Origin: an uncultured Bacillales bacterium
GTDB taxonomy: Bacteria > Bacillota_I > Bacilli_A > RFN20 > CAG-826
Assembly (NCBI GenBank): GCA_946414655.1
Contig: CAMKPL010000002.1
Span: forward strand, 133,765-197,764
Length of the DNA stretch: 64,000 nucleotides
Direction: 5' to 3'
Shown here: positions 9,243 to 49,108 of the stretch, piece by piece
How positions within the stretch are numbered: position 1 is the stretch's first letter
How the letters are laid out: every line of letters begins with the position of its first letter
The notes under the pieces: generated by a model
What the model was told of the DNA's origin: nothing
Database searches by the model: none
Seen by the model: only the letters and a program-made list of their open reading frames with translations
Position numbers and translations under genes: made by a program

Positions 9243-9270
9243 AACACACCATAAGGTGTGTCTTTTCTTA
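9243..9270. terminator. Bidirectional rho-independent terminator between the convergent genes mnmA and the ABC ATPase.
   Basis: Hairpin ACACACC-ataa-GGTGTGT followed by CTTTTCTT. Confidence 0.5.
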
Positions 9271-10269
9271 TCTATTGATTGATTTAGCTTCTGCTTCATC
9301 AAACATATTGAGCAGATGTTCAACTGTGAGATTTTGTTTTTCTTTTCCGGAGATGTCGTGAATGATCTTTCCTTCATAGAACATGATTAAGCGGTCACCG
9401 TAAGTAATCGCATCACGCATGTTATGTGTGACCATGAGGGTGGTTAGTTTATTCTCACGGACAATCTTTTCTGTTAAGGCAAGAACCTTCTTGGCGGTTT
9501 TTGGATCAAGCGCTGCAGTGTGCTCATCAAGAAGAAGAATTTGTTTTGTGAGATCGTATTTACGAATCTTGGCATCAAATTCATCATATAAAGCACGCTT
9601 TTTGGCGCGTTTTTCTTTGCAAGAAAGTTTCTCCTTAGAAAGTTCTTTTAAAGCCTCTTTGTAGGCTTGTTTAGCATCATTATAAACTCTCGTCACTTCT
9701 TGTTTGGCTTTTTCTTTATCACCAATATAGAAAGTCGAATAATCTTTAATGATTTGTTTATGCGATGGTTCAGCTCTTAATGTTGCCATTAACAATGTTA
9801 ATGCTTGACGTTGTCCGCCAGAAAGAACACTTGTTTTAGTTGTTAAACGTGTTTCTAATCCAAGATTGAAACTCTTTAACATCTCAATGTATTTTTGTTT
9901 TTGTTCTTTGTTGATGTACCAACCTAAACCATTATGTCCGCCTTTACGTGAGGCAATCGCCATGTTTTCAATGACTTGCATTGATCCAGCAGTACCTTTG
10001 TTCGTGTCTTGGAAGACACGGGCGAAGTATTTAGCGCGTTTATTCTCTGGCATGTTGGTAATATCAACATCGTTAAGTAAAACAGCGCCTTGATCTGGAT
10101 TCATATTTCCAGTAAGAACATTTAATGTAGTTGATTTTCCGCTTCCGTTTCCACCAATAATAGTGACAAATTCGCCATCATTTATGGTGAAAGAAACATT
10201 GTTTAAAGCAACTTTTTCATCAGCTGTTCCTTTGTAGAAGACTTTTGTAACGTTTTTAAAAGATAACAT
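9268..10269 (-). CDS. ABC transporter ATP-binding protein, COG1101-like. It carries an about 78-aa Lys/Glu-rich insert between the signature motif and Walker B.
   Basis: Walker A 'GGNGSGKST', signature 'LSGGQRQ', Walker B 'ILLLDEHTAALD', H-loop 'THNM'. Insert is 'RAEPSHKQ...KIRKYDLTKQ'. Confidence 0.8.
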   Translation of the reverse strand: MLSFKNVTKVFYKGTADEKVALNNVSFTINDGEFVTIIGGNGSGKSTTLNVLTGNMNPDQGAVLLNDVDITNMPENKRAKYFARVFQDTNKGTAGSMQVIENMAIASRKGGHNGLGWYINKEQKQKYIEMLKSFNLGLETRLTTKTSVLSGGQRQALTLLMATLRAEPSHKQIIKDYSTFYIGDKEKAKQEVTRVYNDAKQAYKEALKELSKEKLSCKEKRAKKRALYDEFDAKIRKYDLTKQILLLDEHTAALDPKTAKKVLALTEKIVRENKLTTLMVTHNMRDAITYGDRLIMFYEGKIIHDISGKEKQNLTVEHLLNMFDEAEAKSINR

Positions 10270-11180
10270 TATTTAGCCTCCTTTGCTCGTTGATGTTTTG
10301 ACTTCGCATTCTTAATATATACATTTTTAATGTATGGTACAGCAAGGAAGATGGCGACAACAATTGCTGAAAGCATCTTTAATAATTCTGGTTCGTTTGT
10401 GACATAGACAATGAATTGGAAGACAAAGAAATAGATAATTGCGCCAACAGTAACAAATCCCATATTAAGTGCAAAATTCTTTGATAAACGACCAAATAAA
10501 GTTGTTCCAATAACAATGGCAGCTAATCCAATGACGATTGCTCCTCGACCCATATTAATATCAGCTGAACCTTGGAAACGAGCAAGTACTGCTCCGGCAA
10601 AAGCAACAATAGCATTGGAAATCATTAACGCAATGATTTTACGGGCATTAACATTAATACCGTTTGCTTTGGCCATCGCTTCGTTTGAACCAGTCGCACG
10701 AATAGATGACCCATATTTGGTTCCAAAGAACCAATACAATGCTAGAATGAGGATGGCAGCGATGCCAATAACAATTGGAATTGTCGTATAAACACCTGAA
10801 CTAGCATTCATCGAAATGAGTGCGTCACGTGAATTAATTGGCATTGATGCTTGACCTAAGATCTTGTAGTTAATTGACCAGAGCATTAACTGAGTTAAAA
10901 TACCAGCCAAAATCCCTGGAATTCCTAGATAACAGTGGAGTAAGGCTGTAATTAAACCAGCCGCAGCTCCAGCAAAGAAGGAAATAAGAAAACCAAGTGG
11001 AACAGGAACACCAGCCGCTGTAAGGATGGCAAATAAACATCCTCCAGTAGCAAATGATCCATCAACAGTTAAATCAGCAAAATCCAAGATTTTGAATGTG
11101 ATAAAAACACCAATGGCCATAATTCCCCAAATGATGCCTTGGTCTAGAACAGATGGTAGTGTGTTAAAAAATCCAGCCAT
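10269..11180 (-). CDS. ABC transporter permease, COG4120 / branched-chain-type BPD_transp_2 family.
   Basis: Polytopic membrane protein. Translationally coupled to the downstream ATPase gene (start/stop overlap). Confidence 0.75.
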   Translation of the reverse strand: MAGFFNTLPSVLDQGIIWGIMAIGVFITFKILDFADLTVDGSFATGGCLFAILTAAGVPVPLGFLISFFAGAAAGLITALLHCYLGIPGILAGILTQLMLWSINYKILGQASMPINSRDALISMNASSGVYTTIPIVIGIAAILILALYWFFGTKYGSSIRATGSNEAMAKANGINVNARKIIALMISNAIVAFAGAVLARFQGSADINMGRGAIVIGLAAIVIGTTLFGRLSKNFALNMGFVTVGAIIYFFVFQFIVYVTNEPELLKMLSAIVVAIFLAVPYIKNVYIKNAKSKHQRAKEAK

Positions 11181-11196
11181 TTTATTTGCTTAAAAA

Positions 11197-12183
11197 TTAT
11201 TCGAGTGGTAAGACTTCGTAACCAGCATCTTCAGGAACATCAATTCCTAAAGCTGTACAACGGGAAGGAACATAAAGTTTCTTCACATTGGTATCGTATT
11301 GAATTTCGTATTCACGAATATCTTTTTTACCAAGTAAAATGTTGAATGCCATTTCACCAGTGATTTCACCTAAACGGGTGTAATCAATGGATAATGTGGC
11401 AAAGCCACAACCTTTACAAATGCCAGATTCTCCAGCAAAAACTGGGACACCAGCACCTTCAAATACTTGGTTAATCGAAGCAGTGTTATCAGCACAGAAG
11501 TTATCTGTTGGGATATAAATCACATCTTCTTTAGAAGCGGCAGTATTACAAACTGATGTTAATGTGTCGGATCCAGAGATTGGATAAGTAGAAACTGTTT
11601 TACCAGCATCTTCTAAATGCTTCTTGACTTCATCAACTTGGAATTTGGAGTTAGCTTCGCTAGCGGAGTATAAAATACCAAATTTTGTTGCATCTGGGCA
11701 AAGTTCTTTCATTGCATTAACTTGTCCATCAAGTGGTGCAAGATCGCTTGTTCCAGAAACATTAGTTTTTGTTTTTCCACCTTCAACTTCAATACTACAT
11801 GCGACACCAAAATCAGTTACAGATGTTCCTAAAATAGGAATATAAGATGTGGCAGTGTAAGCCGCAGATAAGCATGGAGTAGCATTAGCTAAGATTAAAT
11901 CAACATCTTTACTAACTAAAGTCGAAATAATGGTTGGGCAGTTAGCTTGATCACCAGCAGCATCGGTTTGAACAAATTCGATTTCACGTCCTTCCGCAGT
12001 AAGGAGAGCGGCTAATTTGGATTTAAAACCGTTTGTTGCTGCATCAAGAGCAACGTGAGGAACGAACTGAGCAATACCTACAACATATTTTTGTTTGTCT
12101 GGGTTAACTTTAATGTCAGTTTTTCCACAACCTGCTAAAGCAGTAATCGCGGCAACGCCGAGGAGTAATGAACCTTTCTTCAT
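11197..12183 (-). CDS. ABC transporter substrate-binding lipoprotein, ABC_sub_bind/COG2984 family.
   Basis: Lipoprotein signal 'LAGC'. First gene of a three-gene importer operon. RBS AGAGGT upstream. Confidence 0.75.
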   Translation of the reverse strand: MKKGSLLLGVAAITALAGCGKTDIKVNPDKQKYVVGIAQFVPHVALDAATNGFKSKLAALLTAEGREIEFVQTDAAGDQANCPTIISTLVSKDVDLILANATPCLSAAYTATSYIPILGTSVTDFGVACSIEVEGGKTKTNVSGTSDLAPLDGQVNAMKELCPDATKFGILYSASEANSKFQVDEVKKHLEDAGKTVSTYPISGSDTLTSVCNTAASKEDVIYIPTDNFCADNTASINQVFEGAGVPVFAGESGICKGCGFATLSIDYTRLGEITGEMAFNILLGKKDIREYEIQYDTNVKKLYVPSRCTALGIDVPEDAGYEVLPLE

Positions 12184-12219: not shown

Positions 12220-12237
12220 TTCACCTTATTTGGTGAA
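12220..12237. promoter_or_regulatory. Perfect inverted repeat TTCACC-N6-GGTGAA in the divergent intergenic region; candidate operator.
   Basis: Lies 37-54 bp upstream of the ABC operon start codon and about 160 bp upstream of the HTH-trpB start. Confidence 0.35.
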
Positions 12238-12344: not shown

Positions 12345-12373
12345 TTGAAATCGCATTATCGGTATTTTATAAT
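12345..12373 (+). promoter_or_regulatory. Sigma-A-type promoter for HTH-trpB
   Basis: TTGAAA - 17 bp - TATAAT, then RBS GAGGAA 8 nt before the ATG at 12400. Confidence 0.45.
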
Positions 12374-13800
12374 TGTGCCGAAAGTTGAGGAACGGAACAA
12401 TGTATATTTCAGTCAAAGAAGCCGCAGAAAAGTGGGGAATTAATGAACGCCGTGTTCGTCTTTTATGCCAAGAAAACCGTATCGAAGGTTTAAAAAAGAA
12501 AGGCAAAGCTTATCTTATTCCAGATAATGCACCAAAACCACTTGATCGAAGAGGCAAAACAAATCCGATTAAAATTAATAAGAATAAAGAAATAAATTTC
12601 GCGACATATCGTAAAGAATATCCGACAAAAGACGGTTATTTTGGTGAATATGGTGGGTCTTATTTTGATGAAAAAACAAACAAGATTTTCCAGGAAATTT
12701 ATAATGCCTACCTCACCATTTGCAAATCCTCGAAATTTATCAACGAATTACGTGAAATCCGCAAGAATTACCAAGGAAGACCAACACCAGTTTATCACTG
12801 TGAACGTCTCTCGAATTACCTTGGAAAAGTTCAAATATATTTGAAAAGAGAAGATTTAAACCATAATGGTTCCCATAAACTAAATAACTGCATGGGACAA
12901 GCTCTTTTGGCAAAATATCTTGGTAAAACTAAGTTAATTGCCGAAACTGGAGCTGGTTCTCACGGCTCTGCTGTGGCAACTGCAGCAGCTTATTTTGGTC
13001 TAAAATGTGACATTTATATGGGCGCTGTTGATATGGAAAAACAAGCACCAAATGTGAACCGCATGAAAATGCTTGGAGCAAGAGTTATTCCAGTTTATGA
13101 AGGCACTCAAACTCTAAAAGAAGCTGTTGATGTTGCTTTTGTAAATTATTTAAAAGAATCTAAAGATGCTTTCTATCTTATGGGATCGGCCGTCGGACCT
13201 CATCCTTATCCGCTAATTGTTAGGGATTTCCAGGAAATTATTGGTCGAGAAGCACGTGAACAGTTCTTAGAAATGACTGGAGAATTGCCTGATATTGTTT
13301 GTGCGTGTGTCGGTGGTGGAAGTAACGCTATCGGTATGTTTGAGGCTTTCTTAAATGATCCAGTCCAAATTGTTGGTGTTGAACCAATGGGTACCGGAAA
13401 GGAAATCGGCAAAAATGCCGCATCCATGACTTTCGGCAAACCTTATGTTCTCCATGGATTTAAGAACCGTGTTTTATTAAATAAAGACGGTAGTGTGGCA
13501 AATGCTTACTCCATTGCATCTGGCTTAGATTATCCAGGCGTTGGACCAGAGCACTGCTTCCTTCATGATATTGGTCGAGTAGAATATGATAGTGTGACTG
13601 ATGAGGAAGCGTTAGAAGCTTTTAAGCTTCTTTCAAGACTCGAAGGTATTATTCCAGCAATCGAATCAGCTCATGCACTAGCTTATGCTATTCGTGTTGC
13701 TCGTACTCGTCATTCTGGTTCAATCCTTGTCAATTTAAGTGGACGAGGAGATAAAGATCTCGACTACATCATGAAAAAATACCCAGAAATTCTTGAATAA
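12373..13800 (+). CDS. trpB: Tryptophan synthase beta subunit (TrpB1-type) fused to an N-terminal HTH DNA-binding domain. Probable true start is the ATG at 12400 ([13 protein letters not shown]...).
   Basis: Core is collinear with E. coli TrpB: '[17 protein letters not shown]' (PLP lysine), 'GGGSNAIG', '[12 protein letters not shown]', 'NLSGRGDKD'. N-terminal 60 aa '[39 protein letters not shown]' matches the common Firmicute stand-alone HTH family. No trpA is adjacent. Confidence 0.8.
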
Positions 13801-18799: not shown

Positions 18800-18967
18800 A
18801 ATATGGTTTACATTTGTAAAAAAATGTTTACAAACACTTTCATTAATAATATATTAATAAGCGTTGTCGCCTCACAAGCTACAACCGCATAGAAAAGGTA
18901 ACTAACTTATTACTCATAGTAATAGACCTTAATAGCGAGTCTTGAGTGAGAAAGTCGAGGTATATTT
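18800..18967 (+). promoter_or_regulatory. rplU 5' leader region containing two short palindromes; possible L21-leader autoregulatory RNA.
   Basis: Palindrome TTTGTAAA-N7-TTTACAAA overlaps a TTTACA(-35)-17-TATATT(-10) promoter. Second palindrome ATTACTCATAGTAAT. The 168-nt untranslated leader is typical of Firmicute rplU operons. Confidence 0.3.
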
Positions 18968-23818: not shown

Positions 23819-26512
23819 ATGCGTCGTTTAATTGCTTATATCTCGATGGTCATCGCCATCTTAATCGGTGTTGGCGTATCTTTTGCTCCAACATTTACCA
23901 AAATGAAAGAAGGTCGTGAATTCGCTTCTGGTCGTGAAATTGTCTTTACCCTTAAGGATAAAGAAAATGAAGCTGATCCAGTAAAAGCAGATGCCGCAGA
24001 AAAAGTTGCCGATATCATGAAGGAACGTTTAGACCTCATGAATGTCGAAGACTATTCTGTTAAGATTGGCACAAACAAAGACGACCCAAGCCAAGTTTAT
24101 GCAGATACGATTTCTGTTTCTTTCTCAACCCAAGACGACACCTTATTTAACTATGTTTCTCGTTTACTTGAATTCTCCGGTAAGGATTTCTCTTTAAGAG
24201 GAAACCTTGATGAAGCCTTTGCTGAAAACGTCTTTAAAGACGTTGAAGCTTATATTTATCGTGATTCAGGCACAATTCCTTATGTTATTTTCCCTGTTTC
24301 CGATAGTGAAGCCGTCAAAACTTTCTTAAAAGTTGTTAGCGGTGAAGATGAAGAATCAGAAGATTCTGGAGCAAAAAGTCTCCTACTTCCAAAATTCGCT
24401 GAAGCTGATGAAGGCGAAGGAGAAAGCGAAGAAGAAGGCGAACAAAAGAATCCAGATGTTTTCCTTTGTGGAAACTGGGGTGATGATGACTCCATTGAAA
24501 AAGCATCTGAAAACCCATATTCAGCCGAGAAGGTTATTTGTTCTTGGAACCACGAGAACATTTGGAACCCAGATTCAAAAGAAGCCGAAACTGAATTACG
24601 TTTCCTCTGTGGATCTGCCAATGAATCCGGTGAATACGATTTAACCGCTTTAAAGAAAGCGAACCAACAAGCATCATTCCTTTTAGGAATGTTTAACGCA
24701 AAAGAATACGAAGTCGCTGTTGAAAACAAGTTTAAAGACGTCACCGTTGATGGTGGGATTAAATATAACTATCTCACTGTTGAAGCTTCTTATGAAAACC
24801 TCATTTCCTTTGAAGGAAATAGCACTAAGCTTGCTTGGTCAGCGACACTTAAAGCAACTTTAATTGGTGTCGTCATTGTTTCTTTACTTTTAGCAATGTT
24901 CTTCCGTTTACAATCTTTGGCCGCGATTGCAACAAGTTTATTAAGCTTGTTCTTCACGTATTTACTATTCTTCGCCATGACTCCAACATTTAATGTTGCA
25001 GCCATTGTTGGAGGTATTGTTGTTGCTCTCCTTTCGATTTTTGGTGAAATTGTTTATATGCATCGCTTCCGTGATGAAGTTTATAAAGGACGTAGTTTAA
25101 AGAAAGCTAATACTGAAGCATTTAGACGTTCAAACTTAATTGTTCTTGATGGAACAGTTTTAGTTGGTGCAAGTGGATTACTCTTCTACCTTCTTGGAGG
25201 TGAAGCTTTAAAATCATTCGGAGTGATCGCTTTCTTTGGTGCAATTATTTCCTTTGTTTTATTCCACATTGTCTATCGTATTTTGAATTGGCTTTTAGCC
25301 AATACAACAAATATTCAAACTAAATATAGTTTGTTTAATATTGACGAAAGCAAAGTTCCAAACATTGCTCTTGATGAAAAGCCAAACTTTGAAAGCCCAT
25401 ATGAGAAAACCGATTTTACTAAGAAACGCAAAGCGTTAGGTATTGTTGGTGGCGTCTTATTGGTTGCTTCCTTAGCTGGTATCATCACTTTTGGTGTATT
25501 AAATGGTTCACCAATTAACACCAAGAAAGCATCAGATGATCACTCAGTCATCTATACATCAATTCAAGCTGATGATGACAGATTAAATTCCACACTCTTT
25601 AGTGATGAAATCTTAGCCAAGATTGTTATCGACGGCAAAGCCGTTAACGTGAAAAATGTTTCTGTCGAATTTAAAGAAACAAAGAGCTACGATCTTGATG
25701 AAAAACTCGAAAAGACAACATATCAATATGTTGCTAAATTCGATAATGTGCTCTCCAACGATAAAGTCCAATACAAGGATGGAGAAGATTTAAAAGATGC
25801 GGAGAATTTACAAGATGCGGTAGTTAATCTTGTTGAAAAATATGAAATTATTGAAAATGGTGTCACTGCCGATGTTCGTGTCACCGGTGAAACTGTTTCA
25901 ACTCCAAATCAAGGCGAAATTGCTTTAGCAACCGGCATTACTTTAGCAGCCGCATTTGTCTACTGCGCTTTCCGCTATCGTTTATCTCGTGCTTGTAGCT
26001 TACTTGTTGTGAGCACTGGTGTGACAACCGTGACATACGGATTACTCACACTTACACGTCTAGCCACATCATCCGTGAGCGCAATTTTACTTCCAATCGT
26101 TGCCATCTCATCCTTATTAACTGCTCTCTTCTACTTAAGTAGAGAGAAAGAACTTGATAAAGAAGAAAAGGCCTATGATGCTGAAAAGCGAAGCGCACTT
26201 GTTGCTCGCGCTGCTTCACTTAGTGCATTACCAGTATTCACTTTTGCATTAATTGGTGGATACCTAGCGATTAACTTCTTTGGTTTTGGACCAGTTGAAT
26301 TAACAATCCTCTTTGGTGCAGTGATTGTCGGAACAGTATTAACTGTTCTTGCAGTGCTCTCACTTATGGGTCCACTTGCTAGTGTCTTTGATCGCTTATT
26401 CAGCAAGGTTCGCTTACCAAAATTACGCCGTCATAAAGAAAACAAACAACATTCGCTTAAACCAAAAACAAGTGAACCACAAGAAACAATCTTTATCGGT
26501 ATTAACGACTAA
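23819..26512 (+). CDS. secDF: Fused protein-export membrane protein SecDF (897 aa) with an about 180-aa acidic, Cys-containing insertion in the first periplasmic domain.
   Basis: 12 TM segments in two blocks with periplasmic domains. Conserved SecD/SecF TM motifs. Insert is 'SGEDEESEDSGAK...GEGESEEEGEQ...FLCGNWGDDD...VICSWNHE...FLCGSANESG'. Confidence 0.85.
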   Translation: MRRLIAYISMVIAILIGVGVSFAPTFTKMKEGREFASGREIVFTLKDKENEADPVKADAAEKVADIMKERLDLMNVEDYSVKIGTNKDDPSQVYADTISVSFSTQDDTLFNYVSRLLEFSGKDFSLRGNLDEAFAENVFKDVEAYIYRDSGTIPYVIFPVSDSEAVKTFLKVVSGEDEESEDSGAKSLLLPKFAEADEGEGESEEEGEQKNPDVFLCGNWGDDDSIEKASENPYSAEKVICSWNHENIWNPDSKEAETELRFLCGSANESGEYDLTALKKANQQASFLLGMFNAKEYEVAVENKFKDVTVDGGIKYNYLTVEASYENLISFEGNSTKLAWSATLKATLIGVVIVSLLLAMFFRLQSLAAIATSLLSLFFTYLLFFAMTPTFNVAAIVGGIVVALLSIFGEIVYMHRFRDEVYKGRSLKKANTEAFRRSNLIVLDGTVLVGASGLLFYLLGGEALKSFGVIAFFGAIISFVLFHIVYRILNWLLANTTNIQTKYSLFNIDESKVPNIALDEKPNFESPYEKTDFTKKRKALGIVGGVLLVASLAGIITFGVLNGSPINTKKASDDHSVIYTSIQADDDRLNSTLFSDEILAKIVIDGKAVNVKNVSVEFKETKSYDLDEKLEKTTYQYVAKFDNVLSNDKVQYKDGEDLKDAENLQDAVVNLVEKYEIIENGVTADVRVTGETVSTPNQGEIALATGITLAAAFVYCAFRYRLSRACSLLVVSTGVTTVTYGLLTLTRLATSSVSAILLPIVAISSLLTALFYLSREKELDKEEKAYDAEKRSALVARAASLSALPVFTFALIGGYLAINFFGFGPVELTILFGAVIVGTVLTVLAVLSLMGPLASVFDRLFSKVRLPKLRRHKENKQHSLKPKTSEPQETIFIGIND

Positions 26513-28158: not shown

Positions 28159-30474
28159 ATGAACACAAAGAAAATAATTCTTCCATTAGTAGCATTATTT
28201 CTTTTAGCTGGCTGTAATTCTGGTTCGAAGAAAACGAGTAAAAAATCCGGAACTAGCCAATCGCCAACACCAAGTGAACAAAAAATTCCATCTTATGATG
28301 GATTGCCTGATTATGGTGAATATGAAGGCACACCAGGAGTTGGAGAAAACCATATTCAATCTATTTCTGCATCTCCAAATAAGACGCATTTAGCCTATGT
28401 TGGTGATGTTTTTACAATCGATTCATCAGTTTCACCTTCATCGATTCCTGAAGAAGAGAAAGTATTTTCATACACATCTTCAAATGAATCTATTGCATCT
28501 GTCAAGATTCTTGATGAAGGACCTGATGGCGAGGTGACATGTTTATCTCCTGGAAAAACAACAATTACGGTTTATTCTTTTGAAAAGAGATTTAAAAGGG
28601 AAATTGTCTTAACAGTTTATGAAAAATCCGATTCAACCGATTTTTATCAAGTTGGCACGAATGCAAACAATGATAAAAAGAAATTTGGTTGGGTCGATAA
28701 AAGATATTTTGATGGCGATAGTGCTGGTGTAACTCAGCTCGGAAGAAACTTCTGGAAGTTCCTTAGATCCCAACCATCCAAGATTGCTACCTATGGTGGA
28801 GCGCTTGCTTTTGGTAGTGCAAACGCCCCAGAAGGATCATTTGAATTATCAACTGTTTTCCAATATCCTGTTGAATCTGTTATTTTAAATTGCTCCAGCG
28901 CTCCTGAAACTGATCCATCAACAGGGATTAATACATCCTACGGAAGTTCAACAATTGATTCATGGATTGGTGAAAATCATTTCGATATTACTATTAACGG
29001 AACAAAATATTCACCAACCAGTGCGATACATACTGCTCGCGGAACTGATGACGCTACTTGTAGTGATCATATCATTGATTGTAAGAATATGTCAGGTGAA
29101 TTCCATGTTAAGCTTGGTGCATCTGCTGGATATATCCGTATTAAATCAATTGTCATTAATTACGCAAATCGTGTTTTCCCAAGCGGCAATGAATCGACCG
29201 CAAACATCAATTTTGATGAAGCATCGTTTACGACCACACCTTCTTCATCATTTAAAGCCAATACCTGTAAAGACGCCAATAATCTTGTTAATGTTGCTCT
29301 TTCATATATGAAAGAAAAGGATGCTGCTGTGGAGAATCATTACGCCATGCGTGGTAACTCAACATTAATCATCACACCTGTTGATAAAACAAAAACAATT
29401 AAGAGTGTTGATGCCACATTTGCCCAATACACACTTCCAGAAGACGAAGTTGATAAAGATGGAAAAGTTATAAAAGAAGCCGGTACTGTTATTATAAATA
29501 ACATTACCACTCGTGAATCCTATACTAACGCCGACGCAATTCTCGATAATTTCCCATCAAAAGAAAACAATGTTAAACTAACAAATTTAAACCTTGGTAC
29601 AAACTGGGTAGAAATCAAAAATGCTCAAACTCAAACAAGTGGATATCTTCTAGGATTAGTTTCACTAAAAGTGGAACTTACTGATGCTGTTACACCGGCT
29701 TCCTTTAGTAAGATGGAAATTGAAGGTCATGTCTTACAAGATACGTATGATTATGAGTCAACAACATATCGTGATACATTTAAAGATCGCGGATGTGCTG
29801 TGAATGCATATTTTACGAATCCAAATCTAATGCCAATCATGCTTAACTCAAATGATTTAAACTTTAAGACAGTTAAAGATTCTCTGAGCTGGAATGCCCT
29901 TAGTTTAGGCGATACAAGTGTTAGTGGAACATCAAAATATGGTGCATTGACATATGAAGGCATTACAGTTCAACAACACGAAAATAAACAATGGAAAAAA
30001 GCGACCAGTGTGGGAGAAGGAAAATATCTAATTGTCTCACGTGAAACACATAAGTGTTTTTCTGGAATCGGAACTAATACACAGATGCAAAACGGGACAA
30101 CGGATTTTGTTGTTAGTTTGAACACCGATAATATGATTGATGGAAGTTACCAAATTGATTATTCCTATTTCACATTTACATCAACTACAAGCAATCATTT
30201 CCGTGCTGATAGTCGCTCCGAATACTTTATTAATGGATTGACAAGCAGTGGTAAGATTTCCTTCTCATATTCAAGTAATGTCTCTTTGTTCCTTGTTCAA
30301 AATGAAGGCGGATTTGATATCCATTATAGTCAAAACAAAAAACAAGACGATGGAACCTATGTTACATACGAATATGTTTTTGGTTTAACTTCATCTGGAT
30401 ATTTCTCTTTTGTTGATGTGACAAGTGAGGCAAGTCAACTTCCAGAACCTGTTGATTTCTATCGTCTTGCCTAG
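28159..30474 (+). CDS. Large surface lipoprotein (771 aa) of unknown function, with an N-terminal Big_2-like Ig domain.
   Basis: Lipobox 'FLLAGC'. Ser/Thr/Pro/Lys-rich linker. Big_2-like 'AYVGDVFTIDSSVSP...VTCLSPGKTTITVY'. Remainder has no recognisable catalytic motifs. Confidence 0.6.
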   Translation: MNTKKIILPLVALFLLAGCNSGSKKTSKKSGTSQSPTPSEQKIPSYDGLPDYGEYEGTPGVGENHIQSISASPNKTHLAYVGDVFTIDSSVSPSSIPEEEKVFSYTSSNESIASVKILDEGPDGEVTCLSPGKTTITVYSFEKRFKREIVLTVYEKSDSTDFYQVGTNANNDKKKFGWVDKRYFDGDSAGVTQLGRNFWKFLRSQPSKIATYGGALAFGSANAPEGSFELSTVFQYPVESVILNCSSAPETDPSTGINTSYGSSTIDSWIGENHFDITINGTKYSPTSAIHTARGTDDATCSDHIIDCKNMSGEFHVKLGASAGYIRIKSIVINYANRVFPSGNESTANINFDEASFTTTPSSSFKANTCKDANNLVNVALSYMKEKDAAVENHYAMRGNSTLIITPVDKTKTIKSVDATFAQYTLPEDEVDKDGKVIKEAGTVIINNITTRESYTNADAILDNFPSKENNVKLTNLNLGTNWVEIKNAQTQTSGYLLGLVSLKVELTDAVTPASFSKMEIEGHVLQDTYDYESTTYRDTFKDRGCAVNAYFTNPNLMPIMLNSNDLNFKTVKDSLSWNALSLGDTSVSGTSKYGALTYEGITVQQHENKQWKKATSVGEGKYLIVSRETHKCFSGIGTNTQMQNGTTDFVVSLNTDNMIDGSYQIDYSYFTFTSTTSNHFRADSRSEYFINGLTSSGKISFSYSSNVSLFLVQNEGGFDIHYSQNKKQDDGTYVTYEYVFGLTSSGYFSFVDVTSEASQLPEPVDFYRLA

Positions 30475-30622: not shown

Positions 30623-31255
30623 ATGAAAAAAACTACTTTAGTTTTACTCCCAGTCTTAGGTGCACTTCTTCTTGCTGGTTGTACAACCGCAAAGAGGCCA
30701 AACAAGAAAAAATCTTCTAGTGCTACCGTTACTTCCAAAACCACATCTCAAGGTGGTGGTGGTAACACTTCCCAAGGTGGCGGTGGCAATACCTCCCAAG
30801 GTGGTGGTGGTAACACTTCCCAAGGCGGAGGCGGCGGAGGCGGCGGTAACGGCACTGTTACCCTTAAAGCTAACGCTGATAAAAGCGCTCAAGATACAAC
30901 TTCAGTTACATTCTCAAATTCTGGTTATACTGTTCTAATTGAACAAGGTAGCAATACCCAAAACACCATTGAAGATTGTGTTAGTAAAACTGGACAAAAT
31001 TCTTTTAGAATGTATAAGGCATTTGACGTTACATTTAGCGCCCCATCTGCATTCAGCAAGCTTGAAATCCAATGGTTCAGCTTCAATGATGAGCCAACTA
31101 AATACGCATTTAATTTCGAAAATGATAATGCGACATTTGAGATGGATCAAACAAACATGAAGACAACCGTCACACTTAAATCTGCTGCAAGCAGCATTAA
31201 GTACGCCAACATCGCTCATCAAGCTCGTGTTGATACCGTTACGTTTATTGCTTAA
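30623..31255 (+). CDS. Small surface lipoprotein (210 aa) with an (S/T)QGGGGN(T) low-complexity linker; paralog of the next gene.
   Basis: Lipobox 'LLLAGC'. 'TSQGGGGNTSQGGGGNTSQGGGGNTSQGGGGGGGGNG'. C-terminal about 130-aa beta-rich domain ending '...VDTVTFIA'. Confidence 0.6.
   Translation: MKKTTLVLLPVLGALLLAGCTTAKRPNKKKSSSATVTSKTTSQGGGGNTSQGGGGNTSQGGGGNTSQGGGGGGGGNGTVTLKANADKSAQDTTSVTFSNSGYTVLIEQGSNTQNTIEDCVSKTGQNSFRMYKAFDVTFSAPSAFSKLEIQWFSFNDEPTKYAFNFENDNATFEMDQTNMKTTVTLKSAASSIKYANIAHQARVDTVTFIA
30745..30860 (+). repeat. Tandem near-identical 21-24-bp coding repeats (ACnTCcCAAGGtGGtGGtGGtAAc x4-5) encoding the TSQGGGGN linker.
   Basis: Direct reading of the sequence. The same repeat DNA recurs at 31500-31565 in the adjacent paralog. 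Confidence 0.7.
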
Positions 31256-31369: not shown

Positions 31370-33094
31370 ATGAATAAAAAATTCCTTATTCTTCCAATCG
31401 TCTCGGCTCTTTTGTTAGCGGGATGTACACTTGGAGGAAAAAAATCTAACAGGAAGAAAAAATCTTCTAGTGCAGTGATTACTTCTTCTGTAACCTCAGG
31501 AGGAAACACTTCTCAAGGTGGTGGTGGTAACACCTCGCAAGGTGGCGGTGGCAATACCTCTCAACCAAGCGGAAGTAGTTCGACACCAGCTCCAACAGAT
31601 TGGTCCTCTGCTGAAGCATCTGCTTTTAGTACAGCGTTCCACGGTATTGTCCCAGCTTATTTTTCTGTTGGGCTTGATTCAGAAGAATCTCAAGCAGAGT
31701 ATGGTTATTTCGTTTCAAAAGCAACAACCGAAGCAATTGCTGATGCCTACTATAATGGCCTCGATTCAACATGGGAAATCGCCTATGATGCAGATGGATA
31801 CGAAGAGAAGCATAAGACTCCTACTGATAACACGGGTTATGTTGTTTGCTATGTAGGTGGTGATCTTAGCGGAAACATTTTTGTTGTTTGGCAATGGTAT
31901 TCTCCAGTCACTTCACTTTCATTGAGTGGAACTCAAAATACTGAATTTGATGTTGGTGACACATTTAGTTACGAAGGCTTAGTTGTCACAGTTAACTTTA
32001 AAGATGGTGACACCATGTCATTTGATTCTGTAGAAGACATTGAATACTATTTCACCGTTACATCTCCAGACATGACTACAGCCGGTCAAAAAACAATTAC
32101 TGTTTCATATTCTGTAGATGAAACAACGACGGTCACAGCAAGCTACACAATTAATGTTAAATCTTCTGTGAAATATACTGTTTCATTTGATGGTGGTGAA
32201 GGAACAGGAACCATGTCCGATGTTGAAGCATCCGAGGGAAGTTATACTCTTCCAGGTTCAACATTTGTTGCCCCAGAAGGCAAAGCCTTTGCCGGTTGGA
32301 AAGCCAATAATACTGGTGACTTAATCCCAGCTGGTGGAACATATAACTTAACTGCTGCTGTGACATTCTATGCTCAATGGGCAAACGAATATACCGTTTC
32401 ATTCTCCGCAGGAGAAGGTAGTGGCACAATGGATCCAGTCAAAGTTGGAGAAGGTGGTAAGATTAGCGAACCAACCTGCACATTTACTGCTCCAACTGGA
32501 AAAGAATTTGATAAATGGGTCATTGGAACCGAAGCTGTTACATTCCCATATACTGTTACAGGCAATGTTACCTTAACCGCAACATGGAAAGAAAAAGCAA
32601 CACCTGTTCAATCAGTCAAATATACGATTGATAATCCAGCCGATCAATATGGTAAGAAATTCTCTGAATTAACTGCAGACCAAATTCTTTCCGGCTTTGT
32701 CTCAAACGGAGCAAATGTCATTACCGAGGTCAAAGATTATAATGCTAACGTTTATTTCGGCGGAAACGGTGGTTCTGGTGATACAGCATTCACCATTGTC
32801 GATGCATTTAAACTTGGTAAGAGTAAAGCAAAAGGCGAGGCAACAGTTGTCATTGGCTCTGGATATTCATTCTCTAAATTAGTTTTAACAGTTGTTGGAC
32901 AACGTGATGATGGTTCGTTAACCGTTAATGGCGTTGAAAAAGCTGTTACAGCTAAAGCTGGTCCAGGTGATCTTACTACACAAACTCTTGAGTTTGATAT
33001 TGCTAGTGGCACAACTGAATTTGTGATGTCATCTAAAGATGATTCAACCGGAAACTTTAGTATTTACATCTTAAGTCTTGAATTTGTTGCCTAA
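31370..33094 (+). CDS. Surface lipoprotein (574 aa) with Gly-rich linker, Listeria-Bacteroides-type (Flg_new) repeats, and a C-terminal domain shared with the 210-aa paralog.
   Basis: Lipobox 'LLLAGC'. 'TSQGGGGNTSQGGGGNTSQ'. Two about 65-aa repeats 'YTVSFDGGEGTGTM...FAGWKAN...TFYAQWA' and 'YTVSFSAGEGSGTM...FDKWVIG...TLTATWK'. C-terminus ends '...IYILSLEFVA'. Confidence 0.65.
   Translation: MNKKFLILPIVSALLLAGCTLGGKKSNRKKKSSSAVITSSVTSGGNTSQGGGGNTSQGGGGNTSQPSGSSSTPAPTDWSSAEASAFSTAFHGIVPAYFSVGLDSEESQAEYGYFVSKATTEAIADAYYNGLDSTWEIAYDADGYEEKHKTPTDNTGYVVCYVGGDLSGNIFVVWQWYSPVTSLSLSGTQNTEFDVGDTFSYEGLVVTVNFKDGDTMSFDSVEDIEYYFTVTSPDMTTAGQKTITVSYSVDETTTVTASYTINVKSSVKYTVSFDGGEGTGTMSDVEASEGSYTLPGSTFVAPEGKAFAGWKANNTGDLIPAGGTYNLTAAVTFYAQWANEYTVSFSAGEGSGTMDPVKVGEGGKISEPTCTFTAPTGKEFDKWVIGTEAVTFPYTVTGNVTLTATWKEKATPVQSVKYTIDNPADQYGKKFSELTADQILSGFVSNGANVITEVKDYNANVYFGGNGGSGDTAFTIVDAFKLGKSKAKGEATVVIGSGYSFSKLVLTVVGQRDDGSLTVNGVEKAVTAKAGPGDLTTQTLEFDIASGTTEFVMSSKDDSTGNFSIYILSLEFVA
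31500..31565 (+). repeat. Second copy of the (ACTTCNCAAGGTGGNGGTGGNAA)n linker repeat DNA, about 95% identical over about 55 bp to 30766-30830.
   Basis: caaggtggtggtggtaacacctcgcaaggtggcggtggcaatacctctcaa compared with caaggtggtggtggtaacacttcccaaggtggcggtggcaatacctcccaa. Confidence 0.7.
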
Positions 33095-48177: not shown

Positions 48178-48195
48178 TCATATAAAGTATGATGT
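48178..48195. promoter_or_regulatory. Palindrome ATCATA-N5-TATGAT in the short divergent intergenic region between the crp/fnr-like gene and the ABC operon; candidate operator.
   Basis: Inverted repeat seen directly. Located immediately upstream of the SBP start codon. Confidence 0.3.
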
Positions 48196-49108
48196 GTCTA
48201 TGAAAACAAAGAAATTATTTTTACTCCCAGCACTCCTTCTAGCTGGCTGCTCTATCGATAGTCAGGAAAAACTATCCATTCTTACTCCAACGGGCGCTCC
48301 AGCGGTCGTTTTTGCATCGTTTTTAAACGATTCTAACTTCAAAGTCATTGATCAACCAGCGAATATTATTGCCCAAATGGTCAATGAAAATGTCGATATC
48401 GCTGTTTTACCAACAAACGTCGGAGTTCAGCAAATTGCAAAAGGTCTCAAGTACAAAATTGCTTCAACAATCACATTTGGAAACCTATTTATTTGTTCGA
48501 CTGGACTAGATGAAGACGGCGTTATGGGTGATGACGATTATATCGTCTCATTCCAGGAAAATGCTGTTCCAGACAAAATATATAAGGCTGTTTATGATGT
48601 AGCAGTTGATTATTACGCAACAAATGCCCAAGAAGCTGCAAAGTGTTTAAAACTAAAACGCGATGTTGTGAATAGCAAAGATGTTGATTATGTCTTAATG
48701 GCTGAACCAGCTATTAGCAAACAAGAATCTATCGGAACTGACTTTAGCATTTATGCTAATCTTCAAGAACAATATCAGACGAAGTACGATAATCAACAAA
48801 TCTTTCAAGCCTCAATTTTTGTTCGTGATTCATTATCTCATGAGCAAGTTGATCCTTATTTAGGTCGTATTAAATCCTATGTTTCTTCCTTAAAAGCTAA
48901 TCCTTCTCTTTTAGAGAATGCAAAACAATTAGACCCAAACGCCGAAACAACTTTAGGAATTGATATTGCAGCAACTGTGGCGGCAATTAAAAAAGATAAT
49001 GCCATCGGTATCGGTTATGAAGTTGCCTATGAACACAAACACGAGATTGATACATTCTTAAAAATCTTTGGCATGACGGAGACTAATGAAGAAATTTATT
49101 ACAAATAA
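48194..49108 (+). CDS. ABC transporter substrate-binding lipoprotein, NMT1/THI5-like/NitT-TauT-type fold; specificity unknown.
   Basis: Lipobox 'LLLAGCS'. GTG start in track. 304 aa. Confidence 0.6.
   Translation: MSMKTKKLFLLPALLLAGCSIDSQEKLSILTPTGAPAVVFASFLNDSNFKVIDQPANIIAQMVNENVDIAVLPTNVGVQQIAKGLKYKIASTITFGNLFICSTGLDEDGVMGDDDYIVSFQENAVPDKIYKAVYDVAVDYYATNAQEAAKCLKLKRDVVNSKDVDYVLMAEPAISKQESIGTDFSIYANLQEQYQTKYDNQQIFQASIFVRDSLSHEQVDPYLGRIKSYVSSLKANPSLLENAKQLDPNAETTLGIDIAATVAAIKKDNAIGIGYEVAYEHKHEIDTFLKIFGMTETNEEIYYK

What the first reader, a model, noticed from the sequence alone, without database searches (positions are those of the whole stretch)
12373..13800. Orphan TrpB1-type tryptophan synthase beta subunit fused to an N-terminal HTH DNA-binding domain
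The C-terminal 400 aa are a canonical TrpB1 beta subunit; the PLP-Lys motif, GGGSNAIG and [12 protein letters not shown] are all present. The first about 60 aa ([45 protein letters not shown]) are a helix-turn-helix module. That module is otherwise seen as a small stand-alone DNA-binding protein in Firmicutes.

No trpA or any other trp gene is adjacent. In a reduced genome, a lone TrpB normally means indole + serine salvage.

The DNA-binding fusion suggests an enzyme that moonlights as an indole/Trp-responsive regulator, or a sensor derived from TrpB. I am not aware of an HTH-TrpB architecture being described.
Basis: partly seen in the sequence, partly recalled or inferred. Interest (0 to 1): 0.7.

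Follow-up and report, generated by a model that had tools for sequence, protein, structure and literature searches.

The report
Tryptophan synthase beta fused to DNA-binding domain
A gut or rumen bacterium encodes a lone tryptophan synthase beta subunit (indole plus serine gives tryptophan) joined to a small excisionase-type DNA-binding domain, and three conserved copies of one DNA motif over the gene's own promoter suggest the enzyme switches its own gene on and off.

Summary
ATG 12400 to stop 13800 (+) encodes a 466-aa protein. Residues 1-41 form an Xis/MerR-like winged helix-turn-helix, followed by a low-confidence basic linker and a full TrpB1 domain.

The fusion is not an ORF-calling artefact:
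- All 120 best database hits are 465-482 aa and cover 99-100% of the query.
- 25 loci I examined from uncultured gut/rumen Bacilli carry it.
- The HTH codons are under purifying selection.

No trp gene lies elsewhere in the 64-kb window or beside any homologue.

New findings:
1. Every fused protein has Ser in place of the canonical active-site loop residue beta-Gln114, while all the closest unfused relatives keep Gln.
2. Every fused gene has three copies of a half-site (C/A)GG(T/A/C)AT, at fixed spacing and in alternating orientation, over its own -10 box, transcription start and start codon. Unfused relatives lack these boxes; some carry a T-box and/or a Trp-codon mini-ORF instead.
3. The same HTH module occurs alone, in tandem arrays, and fused to Fic and SDR enzymes.

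Best reading: a self-repressing "trigger enzyme" for indole salvage. DNA binding and catalysis are untested. I rate it a new variant of a known kind.

The parts
12400..13800 (+). HTH-TrpB coding sequence (466 aa plus stop)
   Evidence: The start is fixed by alignment with 45 homologues and by SD GAGGA at 12387-12391. There is no internal Met before residue 165.
12400..12552 (+). N-terminal winged HTH (residues 1-41) plus conserved tail A-x-K-P-x-D-x-R (residues 44-51)
   Evidence: HTH_17 25.6 bits and TIGR01764 22.5 bits. AF2 pLDDT 84-87. Foldseek top hits are lambda/HK022 Xis and MerR-family domains. Invariant in 46 sequences: R17 R18 R20 L22 R27 G30 Y38 P41 K46 P47 D49 R51. dN/dS 0.03-0.34.
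12553..12633 (+). Linker (residues 52-64) and the N-terminal segment (I/V)(N/D)FxTYxKxYP shared with unfused orphan TrpBs (residues 65-78)
   Evidence: The full-length model has pLDDT below 50 at residues 51-60 and about 75 at 61-90. The motif is shared with L016-L080.
12634..13779 (+). TrpB1 catalytic domain (residues 79-460)
   Evidence: TIGR00263 528.9 bits against cutoff 392.45. PDB best matches are LBCA TrpB 5ey5_B (E 6e-140) and P. furiosus TrpB 5dvz_A. Catalytic residues mapped.
12877..12879 (+). Codon of the PLP Schiff-base lysine K160 (St beta-Lys87)
   Evidence: sequence.
12958..12960 (+). Codon of Ser187, replacing the canonical St beta-Gln114
   Evidence: Ser in 46/46 fused proteins; Gln in 54/54 closest unfused proteins and in St, Pf and LBCA TrpB.
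12345..12373 (+). Predicted promoter of HTH-trpB (TTGAAA, 17 nt, TATAAT)
   Evidence: 11 of 12 matches. An equivalent promoter, with its -10 ending 3-5 nt before box 2, is found in 16 of 25 loci.
12360..12365 (+). Box 1 (CGGTAT), in the promoter spacer just upstream of the -10
12373..12382 (-). Box 2 (TTCGGCACAA read on the - strand), over the predicted transcription start
   Evidence: This is the best-conserved box (TTCGG in 22-25 of 25 loci).
12393..12398 (+). Box 3 (CGGAAC), just before the ATG. In most other lineages it reads GGTATG and contains the start codon.
9268..12183 (-). Divergent ABC transporter: TrpX-like substrate-binding lipoprotein 11197-12183, permease 10269-11180, ATPase 9268-10269
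   Evidence: NF041285 ABC_SBP_TrpX 195 bits (below cutoff 390) and PF04392. The same arrangement occurs in L001-L005, L081, L086 and L087 but not in the other fused loci. Whether it belongs to the system is uncertain.
12220..12237 (.). It is probably a hairpin in the transporter's 5'UTR, not the HTH operator.
   Evidence: The - strand promoter TATACA 12313 ... TAGAAT 12285 places it in the transcript. It is not conserved outside the closest relatives and is replaced by other hairpins.

Best explanation
The gene encodes a stand-alone tryptophan synthase beta subunit that makes tryptophan from environmental indole and serine. Through its N-terminal Xis/MerR-type winged helix-turn-helix it also represses its own transcription.

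Proposed mechanism (inferred): TrpB is a dimer, so each molecule carries two HTH domains on flexible basic linkers of about 25 residues. They bind a three-box array of the half-site (C/A)GG(T/A/C)AT, in alternating orientation with 15-17 bp between anchors. The array covers the -10 box, the transcription start and the start codon of the gene's own promoter. Occupancy of the PLP active site by tryptophan, serine or indole shifts the open/closed equilibrium of the TrpB domain. That equilibrium is probably re-tuned by the clade-specific Gln114->Ser change. The shift alters how the two HTHs can be presented to the operator, so expression follows the need for, or availability of, substrate.

Shown here: the fusion, its conservation, the fold, the intact catalytic set apart from Gln114, the box array and its exclusive association with fused genes.

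Inferred: DNA binding to the boxes, the direction of regulation, the effector, and catalytic activity.
For: Fusion is real:
- The 120 best hits are all 465-482 aa with 99-100% coverage at 69-95% identity.
- 16 species-representative MAGs plus 9 further contigs carry it.
- dN/dS of the HTH codons is 0.03-0.34 at pS 0.5-0.7.
- There is no Met between residues 1 and 165.

HTH fold:
- Pfam and NCBIfam hits lie just below cutoff.
- The confident AF2 wHTH matches Xis-DNA complexes and MerR-family DNA-binding domains best.
- The invariant residues are mostly arginines in helix 2 and in the wing and tail.
- The linker is low confidence.

The module is autonomous: 5450 cluster representatives carry it, mostly proteins of 60-110 aa, plus tandem arrays and fusions to Fic and SDR enzymes.

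Enzyme part:
- TIGR00263 scores above cutoff.
- K87, H86, E109, T110, D305, E350, S377 and GGGSN are invariant.
- Core dN/dS is 0.01-0.10.

Operator candidate:
- In 25 upstream regions from lineages with pS 0.5-0.85, GG is kept in 74/75 boxes, A(+3) in 75/75 and T(+4) in 62/75. Spacing is fixed at 15-18 and 15-16 nt.
- In 16 of 25 loci the -10 ends 3-5 nt before box 2, so box 2 sits on the transcription start.
- A strict box2-box3 pattern occurs only at the gene's own start in 371 kb of fused-lineage DNA.

Context:
- Genomic context varies and the gene is never next to trpA. The only constant partner of the boxes is the HTH itself.
- Unfused relatives lack the boxes; about half carry a Trp-codon mini-ORF and one of 13 scanned has a T-box. 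This suggests the HTH replaced an RNA-based tryptophan control.

Gln114 is known to set the stability of the closed state (PMC9512447).
Against: - No experiment exists; DNA binding is inferred from fold and motif co-occurrence only.
- Half-site spacing of about 16 bp (1.5 helical turns) is unusual for a simple dimeric repressor.
- In one sub-clade (L007-L012, L015) the best predicted promoter lies upstream of all three boxes. There an RNA-level role cannot be excluded.
- The HTH scores below the curated cutoffs of both family models.
- Gln114->Ala/Asn mutants of the Salmonella enzyme are catalytically impaired, so Ser187 may mean low or altered activity.
- Whether the genome lacks trpA-E altogether was not testable.
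Confidence: 0.5

Rival explanations
1. It is a transcription factor whose TrpB-derived domain only senses a ligand (a pseudo-enzyme or very slow enzyme). This would be analogous to MocR/GabR regulators, which keep PLP chemistry for effector sensing. It would control genes elsewhere in the genome.
For: - The invariant clade-specific Gln114->Ser change is at a residue whose mutation impairs the beta reaction and destabilises the closed state.
- A second clade-specific change occurs at St His267 -> Asn.
- In about half of the fused loci the gene is divergent from a TrpX-like ABC transporter.
Against: - All other catalytic residues are invariant and the core is under very strong purifying selection.
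- The only conserved candidate sites lie at the gene's own start. None is at the transporter promoter or elsewhere in 371 kb, and a factor that regulates only itself needs another selected output.
- Context is unrelated in half of the lineages.
Confidence: 0.15
2. The enzyme is an ordinary indole-salvage TrpB. The HTH does something other than self-repression, such as nucleoid tethering, protein-protein contact, or regulation of unknown distant targets. The three boxes would then be promoter or 5'-leader features, or the site of another factor.
For: - Box 2 and box 3 are complementary: 81% of cells pair.
- In L007-L012 and L015 all boxes lie downstream of the best predicted -10.
- The module occurs in large tandem arrays whose role is unknown.
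Against: - The pairing shows no covariation beyond column conservation (shuffles 79.5%), and RNAalifold predicts no structure.
- In 16 of 25 loci box 2 lies at or before the predicted transcription start, so the hairpin could not form in the RNA.
- Box 1 repeats the same half-site. The bases themselves are conserved rather than the pairing, as expected for a protein site.
- The boxes are found with fused genes only.
Confidence: 0.25
3. The HTH substitutes for TrpA as an allosteric activator or tunnel cap of the beta subunit.
For: - It is attached at the N-terminus of TrpB (from general knowledge of the alpha-beta-beta-alpha complex, near the TrpA interface; not tested here).
- Isolated TrpB subunits of some species are poorly active (PMC9512447).
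Against: - The linker is predicted to be disordered.
- The same module is found alone and on unrelated enzymes.
- Unfused orphan relatives do without it.
Confidence: 0.05
4. The fusion is an ORF-calling artefact and the true product starts after the HTH, as in the 402-aa NCBI annotation.
For: One NCBI PGAP record starts at MNFATY, which is an ATA codon.
Against: - The upstream frame is conserved in all homologues with dN/dS well below 1.
- The SD and promoter precede ATG 12400.
- There is no ATG, and no SD-like purine run precedes residue 65 in the sequence.
Confidence: 0.02

Closest known systems
TrpB1 tryptophan synthase beta subunit (TIGR00263; e.g. P. furiosus TrpB 5dvz, reconstructed LBCA TrpB 5ey5, S. 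typhimurium TrpB)
   Same: Full-length fold-type II PLP domain at 48-56% identity. The PLP lysine, Glu109, Asp305, Ser377 and the GGGSN phosphate loop are all present.
   Different: - No TrpA partner gene nearby.
- Gln114 -> Ser is invariant in the fused clade.
- Arg141 -> Lys and Phe280 -> His are shared with the unfused orphan clade.
- It has an extra N-terminal segment DFxTYxKxYP and, uniquely, an N-terminal HTH.
Orphan, unfused TrpB clade of gut Clostridia (loci L016-L080)
   Same: The closest relatives at 60-71% identity, with the same N-terminal DFxTYxKxYP segment and no adjacent trpA.
   Different: They keep Gln114 and lack both the HTH and the boxes. Instead 32 of 62 have a Trp-codon mini-ORF (MxLLTKRWR) upstream, and one of 13 scanned has a T-box above Rfam's threshold.
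Trigger enzymes and enzyme-regulator fusions (BirA, PutA, NadR, archaeal RbkR). Named from general knowledge; an RbkR-DNA complex also appeared among the fold matches.
   Same: One polypeptide combines a metabolic enzyme with a DNA-binding domain. The candidate operator lies at the gene's own promoter.
   Different: The enzyme (TrpB) and the HTH type (Xis/MerR-like HTH_17) are different, and DNA binding has not been shown.
MocR/GabR/PdxR PLP-dependent transcription regulators (general knowledge)
   Same: A PLP-binding domain joined to an N-terminal winged HTH on a dimeric scaffold.
   Different: MocR proteins have a GntR-type HTH and a fold-type I aminotransferase domain that has lost normal catalysis. 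Here the HTH is HTH_17-type and the PLP domain is a fold-type II TrpB with a nearly complete catalytic set.
Lambda/HK022 Xis and MerR-family N-terminal domains (PF12728 HTH_17, TIGR01764)
   Same: The same beta-helix-helix-wing fold (TM 0.77, rmsd 1.7 A over 51 residues against 2og0_A).
   Different: Only 27% identity. It is not part of a recombination module, is chromosomal and syntenic (mnmA-ABC-trpB-alaS), and carries the extra conserved tail A-x-K-P-x-D-x-R.

Membership tests
TrpB1 (TIGR00263 trpB equivalog) | Whole-protein score above the curated cutoff | tested here: met
   528.9 bits against cutoff 392.45.
TrpB1 (TIGR00263 trpB equivalog) | PLP Schiff-base lysine, catalytic Glu109, Asp305, Ser377 and the GGGSN phosphate loop | tested here: met
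   K160, E182, D377, S447 and G305-N309 are invariant in 46 fused sequences, apart from S308 (Ser in 44, Cys in 2).
TrpB1 (TIGR00263 trpB equivalog) | Substrate-carboxylate loop T-G-A-G-Q-H with Gln114 | tested here: not met
   Ser187 in 46/46 fused proteins; Gln in 54/54 unfused relatives and in St, Pf and LBCA.
TrpB1 (TIGR00263 trpB equivalog) | Works with a TrpA subunit encoded in the same operon or genome | tested here: not met
   No Trp_syntA or other trp gene in the 64-kb window or beside the gene in 25 loci. Absence from the whole genome is not testable with these tools.
TrpB1 (TIGR00263 trpB equivalog) | Catalyses indole + L-serine -> L-tryptophan | not testable with these tools
   Needs an enzyme assay or complementation.
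TrpB2 / TrpB-like (TIGR01415, NF009057) | Score above the curated cutoff | tested here: not met
   188.4 bits against 518.85, and 185.9 against 366.
HTH_17 / excisionase-family DNA-binding domain (PF12728, TIGR01764) | Score above the curated cutoff | tested here: inconclusive
   25.6 bits against 27 (domain alone) and 22.5 against 28.8. Some homologues carry a precomputed PF12728 hit. Relatives found with the profile reach the cutoff, e.g. P0200 at 28.6 bits and P0165 at 104.9 bits.
HTH_17 / excisionase-family DNA-binding domain (PF12728, TIGR01764) | Beta-helix-turn-helix-wing fold of Xis/MerR N-domains | tested here: met
   The AF2 model has strand 2-3, H5-12, H16-24 and wing 32-41 at pLDDT 84-87. 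The top Foldseek hits are 2og0, 1rh6, 1pm6, 4j2n and 5e01.
HTH_17 / excisionase-family DNA-binding domain (PF12728, TIGR01764) | Binds specific DNA | not testable with these tools
   The only evidence is a candidate three-box site.
Trigger enzyme / autoregulating enzyme-repressor fusion | Enzyme domain and DNA-binding domain in one polypeptide | tested here: met
Trigger enzyme / autoregulating enzyme-repressor fusion | Operator overlapping the gene's own promoter | tested here: inconclusive
   Three conserved half-sites span the -10, the transcription start and the ATG in 25 of 25 loci. Binding is not shown.
Trigger enzyme / autoregulating enzyme-repressor fusion | DNA binding modulated by substrate or product | not testable with these tools
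   Needs EMSA with and without Trp, indole and serine.
MocR/GabR PLP-dependent regulators | GntR-type wHTH plus fold-type I aminotransferase-like domain | tested here: not met
   No GntR or Aminotran_1_2 hit. The domains are HTH_17-like and PALP (fold-type II).

The most novel reading that the evidence does not exclude
HTH-TrpB would be the first transcription regulator built on a fold-type II PLP enzyme. The open/closed switch of a working tryptophan synthase beta dimer, re-tuned by Gln114->Ser, would directly gate two tethered Xis-like HTH domains on a three-box operator. One protein would then both sense indole or tryptophan and make tryptophan. In this lineage it would have replaced the T-box and leader-peptide control seen in some of its unfused relatives.
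Probability: 0.35. Interest if true: 0.75.

Novelty: new variant of a known kind. Interest (0 to 1): 0.6.

Why it matters
If confirmed, this adds a second structural class of PLP-dependent transcription regulators beside MocR/GabR. It would also be a natural example of an enzyme's allosteric open/closed switch being reused as a gene switch.

It offers a compact, single-protein indole or tryptophan sensor with a defined 40-bp operator. That could be useful for biosensors and for TrpB engineering, where stand-alone activity and the role of Gln114 are active topics.

It also bears on ecology. Uncultured gut and rumen Bacilli, and a sister clade of Clostridia, appear to rely on community-produced indole for tryptophan, and they control that step in quite different ways.

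Finally, it flags an annotation problem: pipelines name the protein plain 'tryptophan synthase subunit beta' and sometimes trim the HTH.

Tried and rejected
- A word-indexed search with the N-terminal 79 aa returned only 14 short fragments. I replaced it with a full profile search.
I therefore relied on Pfam and NCBIfam annotation of neighbours.
- RNA hairpin hypothesis for box2/box3: 81% of cells pair, against 79.5% in shuffles. There is no real covariation, RNAalifold predicts nothing, and box 2 lies at the predicted transcription start. I rejected this as the main explanation.
- Rfam found no T-box or other leader near the gene.
- A search for further box sites (a regulon) in the window and in 371 kb of related loci found none beyond the gene's own start.
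- L032 and the other apparent N-terminal extensions in Clostridia are read-through of upstream leader sequence (which in L030 includes a T-box), not fusions.
- A metagenome scan with an HTH-Fic relative (P0200) mostly returned small stand-alone HTH genes. Their promoters carry a different palindrome (GTTCTT-N4-AAGAAC), so this did not test the GGTAT boxes.
- The afdb50 fold library was unavailable.
- 'Candidatus Enteromonas' is not in the taxonomy copy.
- Four literature searches found no description of the architecture.
Full report
**1. What is there**

The + strand carries an ORF from 12373 (TTG) to the stop at 13800. The functional start is ATG 12400:
- It aligns with the first Met of every homologue.
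- It lies 8 nt after GAGGA (12387-12391).
- It follows a near-consensus promoter, TTGAAA 12345 - 17 nt - TATAAT ending at 12373 (11 of 12 matches).

The product is 466 aa. Residues 79-460 score 528.9 bits against NCBIfam TIGR00263 (trpB; cutoff 392.45), and Pfam PALP gives E 4e-42. The best solved relatives are the reconstructed LBCA TrpB (5ey5_B, E 6e-140) and P. furiosus TrpB (5dvz_A). TrpB2-type models are far below cutoff.

Residues 2-41 hit Pfam HTH_17 at 25.6 bits (cutoff 27) and TIGR01764 'excisionase family DNA-binding domain' at 22.5 bits (cutoff 28.8). An AlphaFold2 model of the N-terminal 106 residues gives strand 2-3, helices 5-12 and 16-24, and a beta-hairpin wing 32-41, at pLDDT 84-87. 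Its best PDB matches are the lambda Xis-DNA complexes 2og0 and 1rh6 (TM 0.77/0.76, rmsd 1.7-2.1 A), HK022 and Pukovnik Xis, and MerR-family DNA-binding domains. In the full-length model residues 51-60 have pLDDT below 50, so the HTH looks like a separately folded domain on a flexible basic tether.

**2. The fusion is real and conserved**

- The 120 best hits in a 5.8-billion-protein collection are all 465-482 aa, cover 99-100% of the query, and are 69-95% identical.
- A scan of one genome per species, using the N-terminal alignment, found the complete fusion in 16 species-level MAGs (L001-L015, L045). All are uncultured 'Bacilli', 'Bacillales' or 'Erysipelotrichaceae' bacteria, plus one 'Candidatus Enteromonas'. 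The sources named in the record titles are sheep rumen, water-deer omasum and horse faeces, plus 'RUG' isolates (rumen MAGs, from my own knowledge).
- Nine further contigs were fetched.
- In 46 aligned sequences the HTH keeps R17, R18, R20, L22, R27, G30, Y38, P41, K46, P47, D49 and R51 invariant.
- Pairwise dN/dS of the first 50 codons is 0.03-0.34 at pS 0.5-0.7. For a 120-codon stretch of the TrpB core it is 0.01-0.10.
- No Met lies between residues 1 and 165.
- The 402-aa NCBI version (P0138) begins at an ATA codon and simply trims the HTH.

The artefact explanation is excluded for practical purposes.

**3. An orphan**

Pfam or NCBIfam annotation of all sizeable ORFs in the window shows no trpA, trpC, trpD, trpE, trpF or trpG. 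The only Glycos_transf_3 protein is a pyrimidine-nucleoside phosphorylase.

Downstream lie alaS, ruvX and greA. Upstream and divergent is an ABC transporter whose lipoprotein is PF04392. Its best NCBIfam hit is the tryptophan-binding protein TrpX, at 195 bits against a cutoff of 390, so this is a relative and not an equivalog.

The transporter is kept next to the gene in L001-L005, L081, L086 and L087. In the other lineages the neighbours are unrelated (plsX/acpP, Fic, heavy-metal ATPase and others), and never trpA. Whether the genomes lack the trp pathway altogether could not be tested.

**4. The closest unfused relatives**

The next-best matches in the species scan (L016-L080) are TrpBs of about 405 aa from gut Clostridia. 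They are 60-71% identical to the fused clade, while both clades are only 44-59% identical to the St, Pf and LBCA enzymes.
- They share the N-terminal segment (N/D)FxTYxKxYP that forms the end of the linker in the fused protein.
- They also have no trpA next to them and no HTH gene nearby.
- 32 of 62 have a mini-ORF M(x)LL(T/V)(K/R)RWR with a single Trp codon upstream.
- In L030 this mini-ORF sits between a T-box (Rfam 100.6 bits) with its terminator and trpB.

So at least some of the sister clade is controlled by RNA devices that plausibly read tryptophan supply. The fused clade has neither device.

**5. A clade-specific active-site change**

It reproduces the landmark residues K87, E109, Q114, R141, K167, T190, D305, E350 and S377.
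- All fused proteins keep K87, H86, E109, T110, N145, K167, D305, E350, S377 and the GGGSN loop (Ser235 is Cys in 2 of 46).
- 46 of 46 have Ser at Gln114 (GAGSHG; window Ser187, codon 12958-12960). 54 of 54 unfused relatives and the St, Pf and LBCA enzymes have Gln.
- St His267 is Asn in 93% of fused proteins and His in all unfused ones.
- According to the review PMC9512447, Gln114 hydrogen-bonds Asn145 and Arg148 only in the closed (R) state. Gln114Ala destabilises that state and impairs the beta reaction. Gln114Asn opens an inactivating side reaction.

The fused clade has therefore fixed a change at exactly the residue that sets the open/closed balance. Catalysis may be retained, slowed or altered; this cannot be decided here.

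**6. A conserved three-box array at the gene's own promoter**

Aligning 57 nt around the start of 25 fused genes gives invariant or near-invariant columns that are not the Shine-Dalgarno sequence. They resolve into three copies of one half-site, (C/A)GG(T/A/C)AT(A).

| Feature | Result |
|---|---|
| GG | 74 of 75 boxes |
| A at +3 | 75 of 75 |
| T at +4 | 62 of 75 |
| Orientation | forward, reverse, forward |
| Box 1 to box 2 spacing | 15 nt (17-18 in the window's clade) |
| Box 2 to box 3 spacing | 16 nt (15 in two loci) |

In the window:
- box 1 is CGGTAT at 12360-12365;
- box 2 is TTCGGCACAA on the - strand at 12373-12382;
- box 3 is CGGAAC at 12393-12398.

In most lineages box 3 reads GGTATG and contains the start codon. 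In the window's clade the ATG has moved one codon downstream (MKY becomes MY), but the box stayed in place.

In 16 of 25 loci the best predicted -10 ends 3-5 nt before the CC of box 2. Boxes 1 and 2 therefore bracket the -10, and box 2 covers the transcription start. In L007-L012 and L015 the best promoter lies 12-16 nt further upstream.

Boxes 2 and 3 are complementary, but the pairing shows no covariation beyond column conservation (81.3% paired against 79.5% in shuffles). RNAalifold predicts no structure. With box 2 at the transcription start, the hairpin could not exist in the RNA of most lineages.

A strict box2-box3 pattern occurs 21 times at the genes' own starts. Its only other hits, in 371 kb of fused-lineage DNA, are the same palindromic sites read on the other strand. 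The unfused relatives have nothing comparable. Because genomic context differs between lineages, the only constant companion of the boxes is the HTH.

**7. The HTH module elsewhere**

A profile of residues 1-56 finds 5450 cluster representatives at E <= 1e-3, and 1791 at E <= 1e-10, among 1.84 billion.
- Most are proteins of 60-110 aa.
- Some are tandem arrays (P0165: six copies in 325 aa; P0171: 23 matched stretches in 2175 aa).
- Some are N-terminal fusions to Fic (P0184, P0200, P0203, P0210), to a short-chain dehydrogenase (P0264) or to a LuxR-type HTH (P0286).
- They share the tail (Y/W)xIPxxAxKPxDxR.

The module is thus an autonomous, portable unit, which argues against a TrpB-specific structural role. 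Small stand-alone relatives from gut metagenomes carry a perfect GTTCTT-N4-AAGAAC palindrome in the spacer of their own promoters. That would be compatible with self-regulation by such proteins, but it is a different motif and not a test.

**8. Interpretation**

The best-supported reading is an autoregulated stand-alone TrpB for indole salvage, a 'trigger enzyme' in the sense of BirA, PutA, NadR or RbkR.
- The enzyme part is needed to give the gene a selectable output, since no other target site was found.
- The HTH and the boxes give a plausible self-repression loop.
- The Gln114->Ser change offers a way to couple active-site occupancy to conformation.

The direction of control (repression by tryptophan or induction by indole) is open. 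Because the sister clade carries a T-box and a Trp-codon leader ORF, which typically report tryptophan starvation, I lean towards tryptophan-promoted repression.

The rivals are listed with their tests: sensor-only regulator, HTH with another role, TrpA surrogate, and artefact.

**9. Novelty**

The architecture is present in sequence databases: some homologues have precomputed PF12728 + PF00291 hits. It is named only 'tryptophan synthase subunit beta'. Four full-text searches found no description. Enzyme-repressor fusions and PLP-dependent regulators (MocR) are known kinds. This combination, the operator candidate and the clade-specific Gln114Ser are new. I rate it a new variant of a known kind, with interest 0.6.

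Noticed in passing
L016-L080 (e.g. L030 1951-2340): The closest unfused TrpBs, from gut Clostridia MAGs, are also orphans without trpA. In 32 of 62 a mini-ORF M(x)LL(T/V)(K/R)RWR with one Trp codon (DNA AAACGATGGCG) sits upstream of trpB. In L030 it follows a T-box and its terminator. This may be an undescribed tryptophan-sensing leader peptide stacked on a T-box.
   Followed up: partly
L001 8769-9782 (-) and L005 (SBP start 9722): The substrate-binding protein divergent from HTH-trpB is a circular permutation of the PF04392 fold: the N-terminal half matches profile positions 133-283. The whole transporter is only about 50% identical to the window's, although the L001 TrpB is 99.6% identical. 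This points to a recent cassette swap.
   Followed up: partly
P0165, P0171, P0184, P0200, P0203, P0210, P0264: The same HTH module, with its KPxDxR tail, forms tandem arrays (6 copies in 325 aa; 23 matched stretches in a 2175-aa protein). It is also fused N-terminally to Fic domains and to a short-chain dehydrogenase.
   Followed up: partly
L090-L122: Small (56-69 aa) stand-alone relatives of the HTH from human-gut metagenomes share a promoter with a perfect GTTCTT-N4-AAGAAC inverted repeat between the -35 and the -10.
   Followed up: no
window 23819-26512, 28159-30474, 30623-31255, 31370-33094, 48194-49108: Five ORFs of 210-897 aa have no Pfam hit at E <= 1e-6. Four of them lie in a block between ruvB/recJ and relA.
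   Followed up: no
TAGAAT). L081, L086 and L087 have hairpins of different sequence at the same place, which suggests a structural RNA feature of the transporter leader.
   Followed up: partly
P0138 (NCBI MDY6275909.1 and others): NCBI's pipeline annotates one copy of this gene as 402 aa starting at an ATA codon, which removes the HTH. Other copies are annotated at 466 aa. The annotation of the architecture is inconsistent.
   Followed up: yes
window 18873-18952: Ribosomal protein L21 leader (RF00559, 43.8 bits). It is the only Rfam hit in the window.
   Followed up: no
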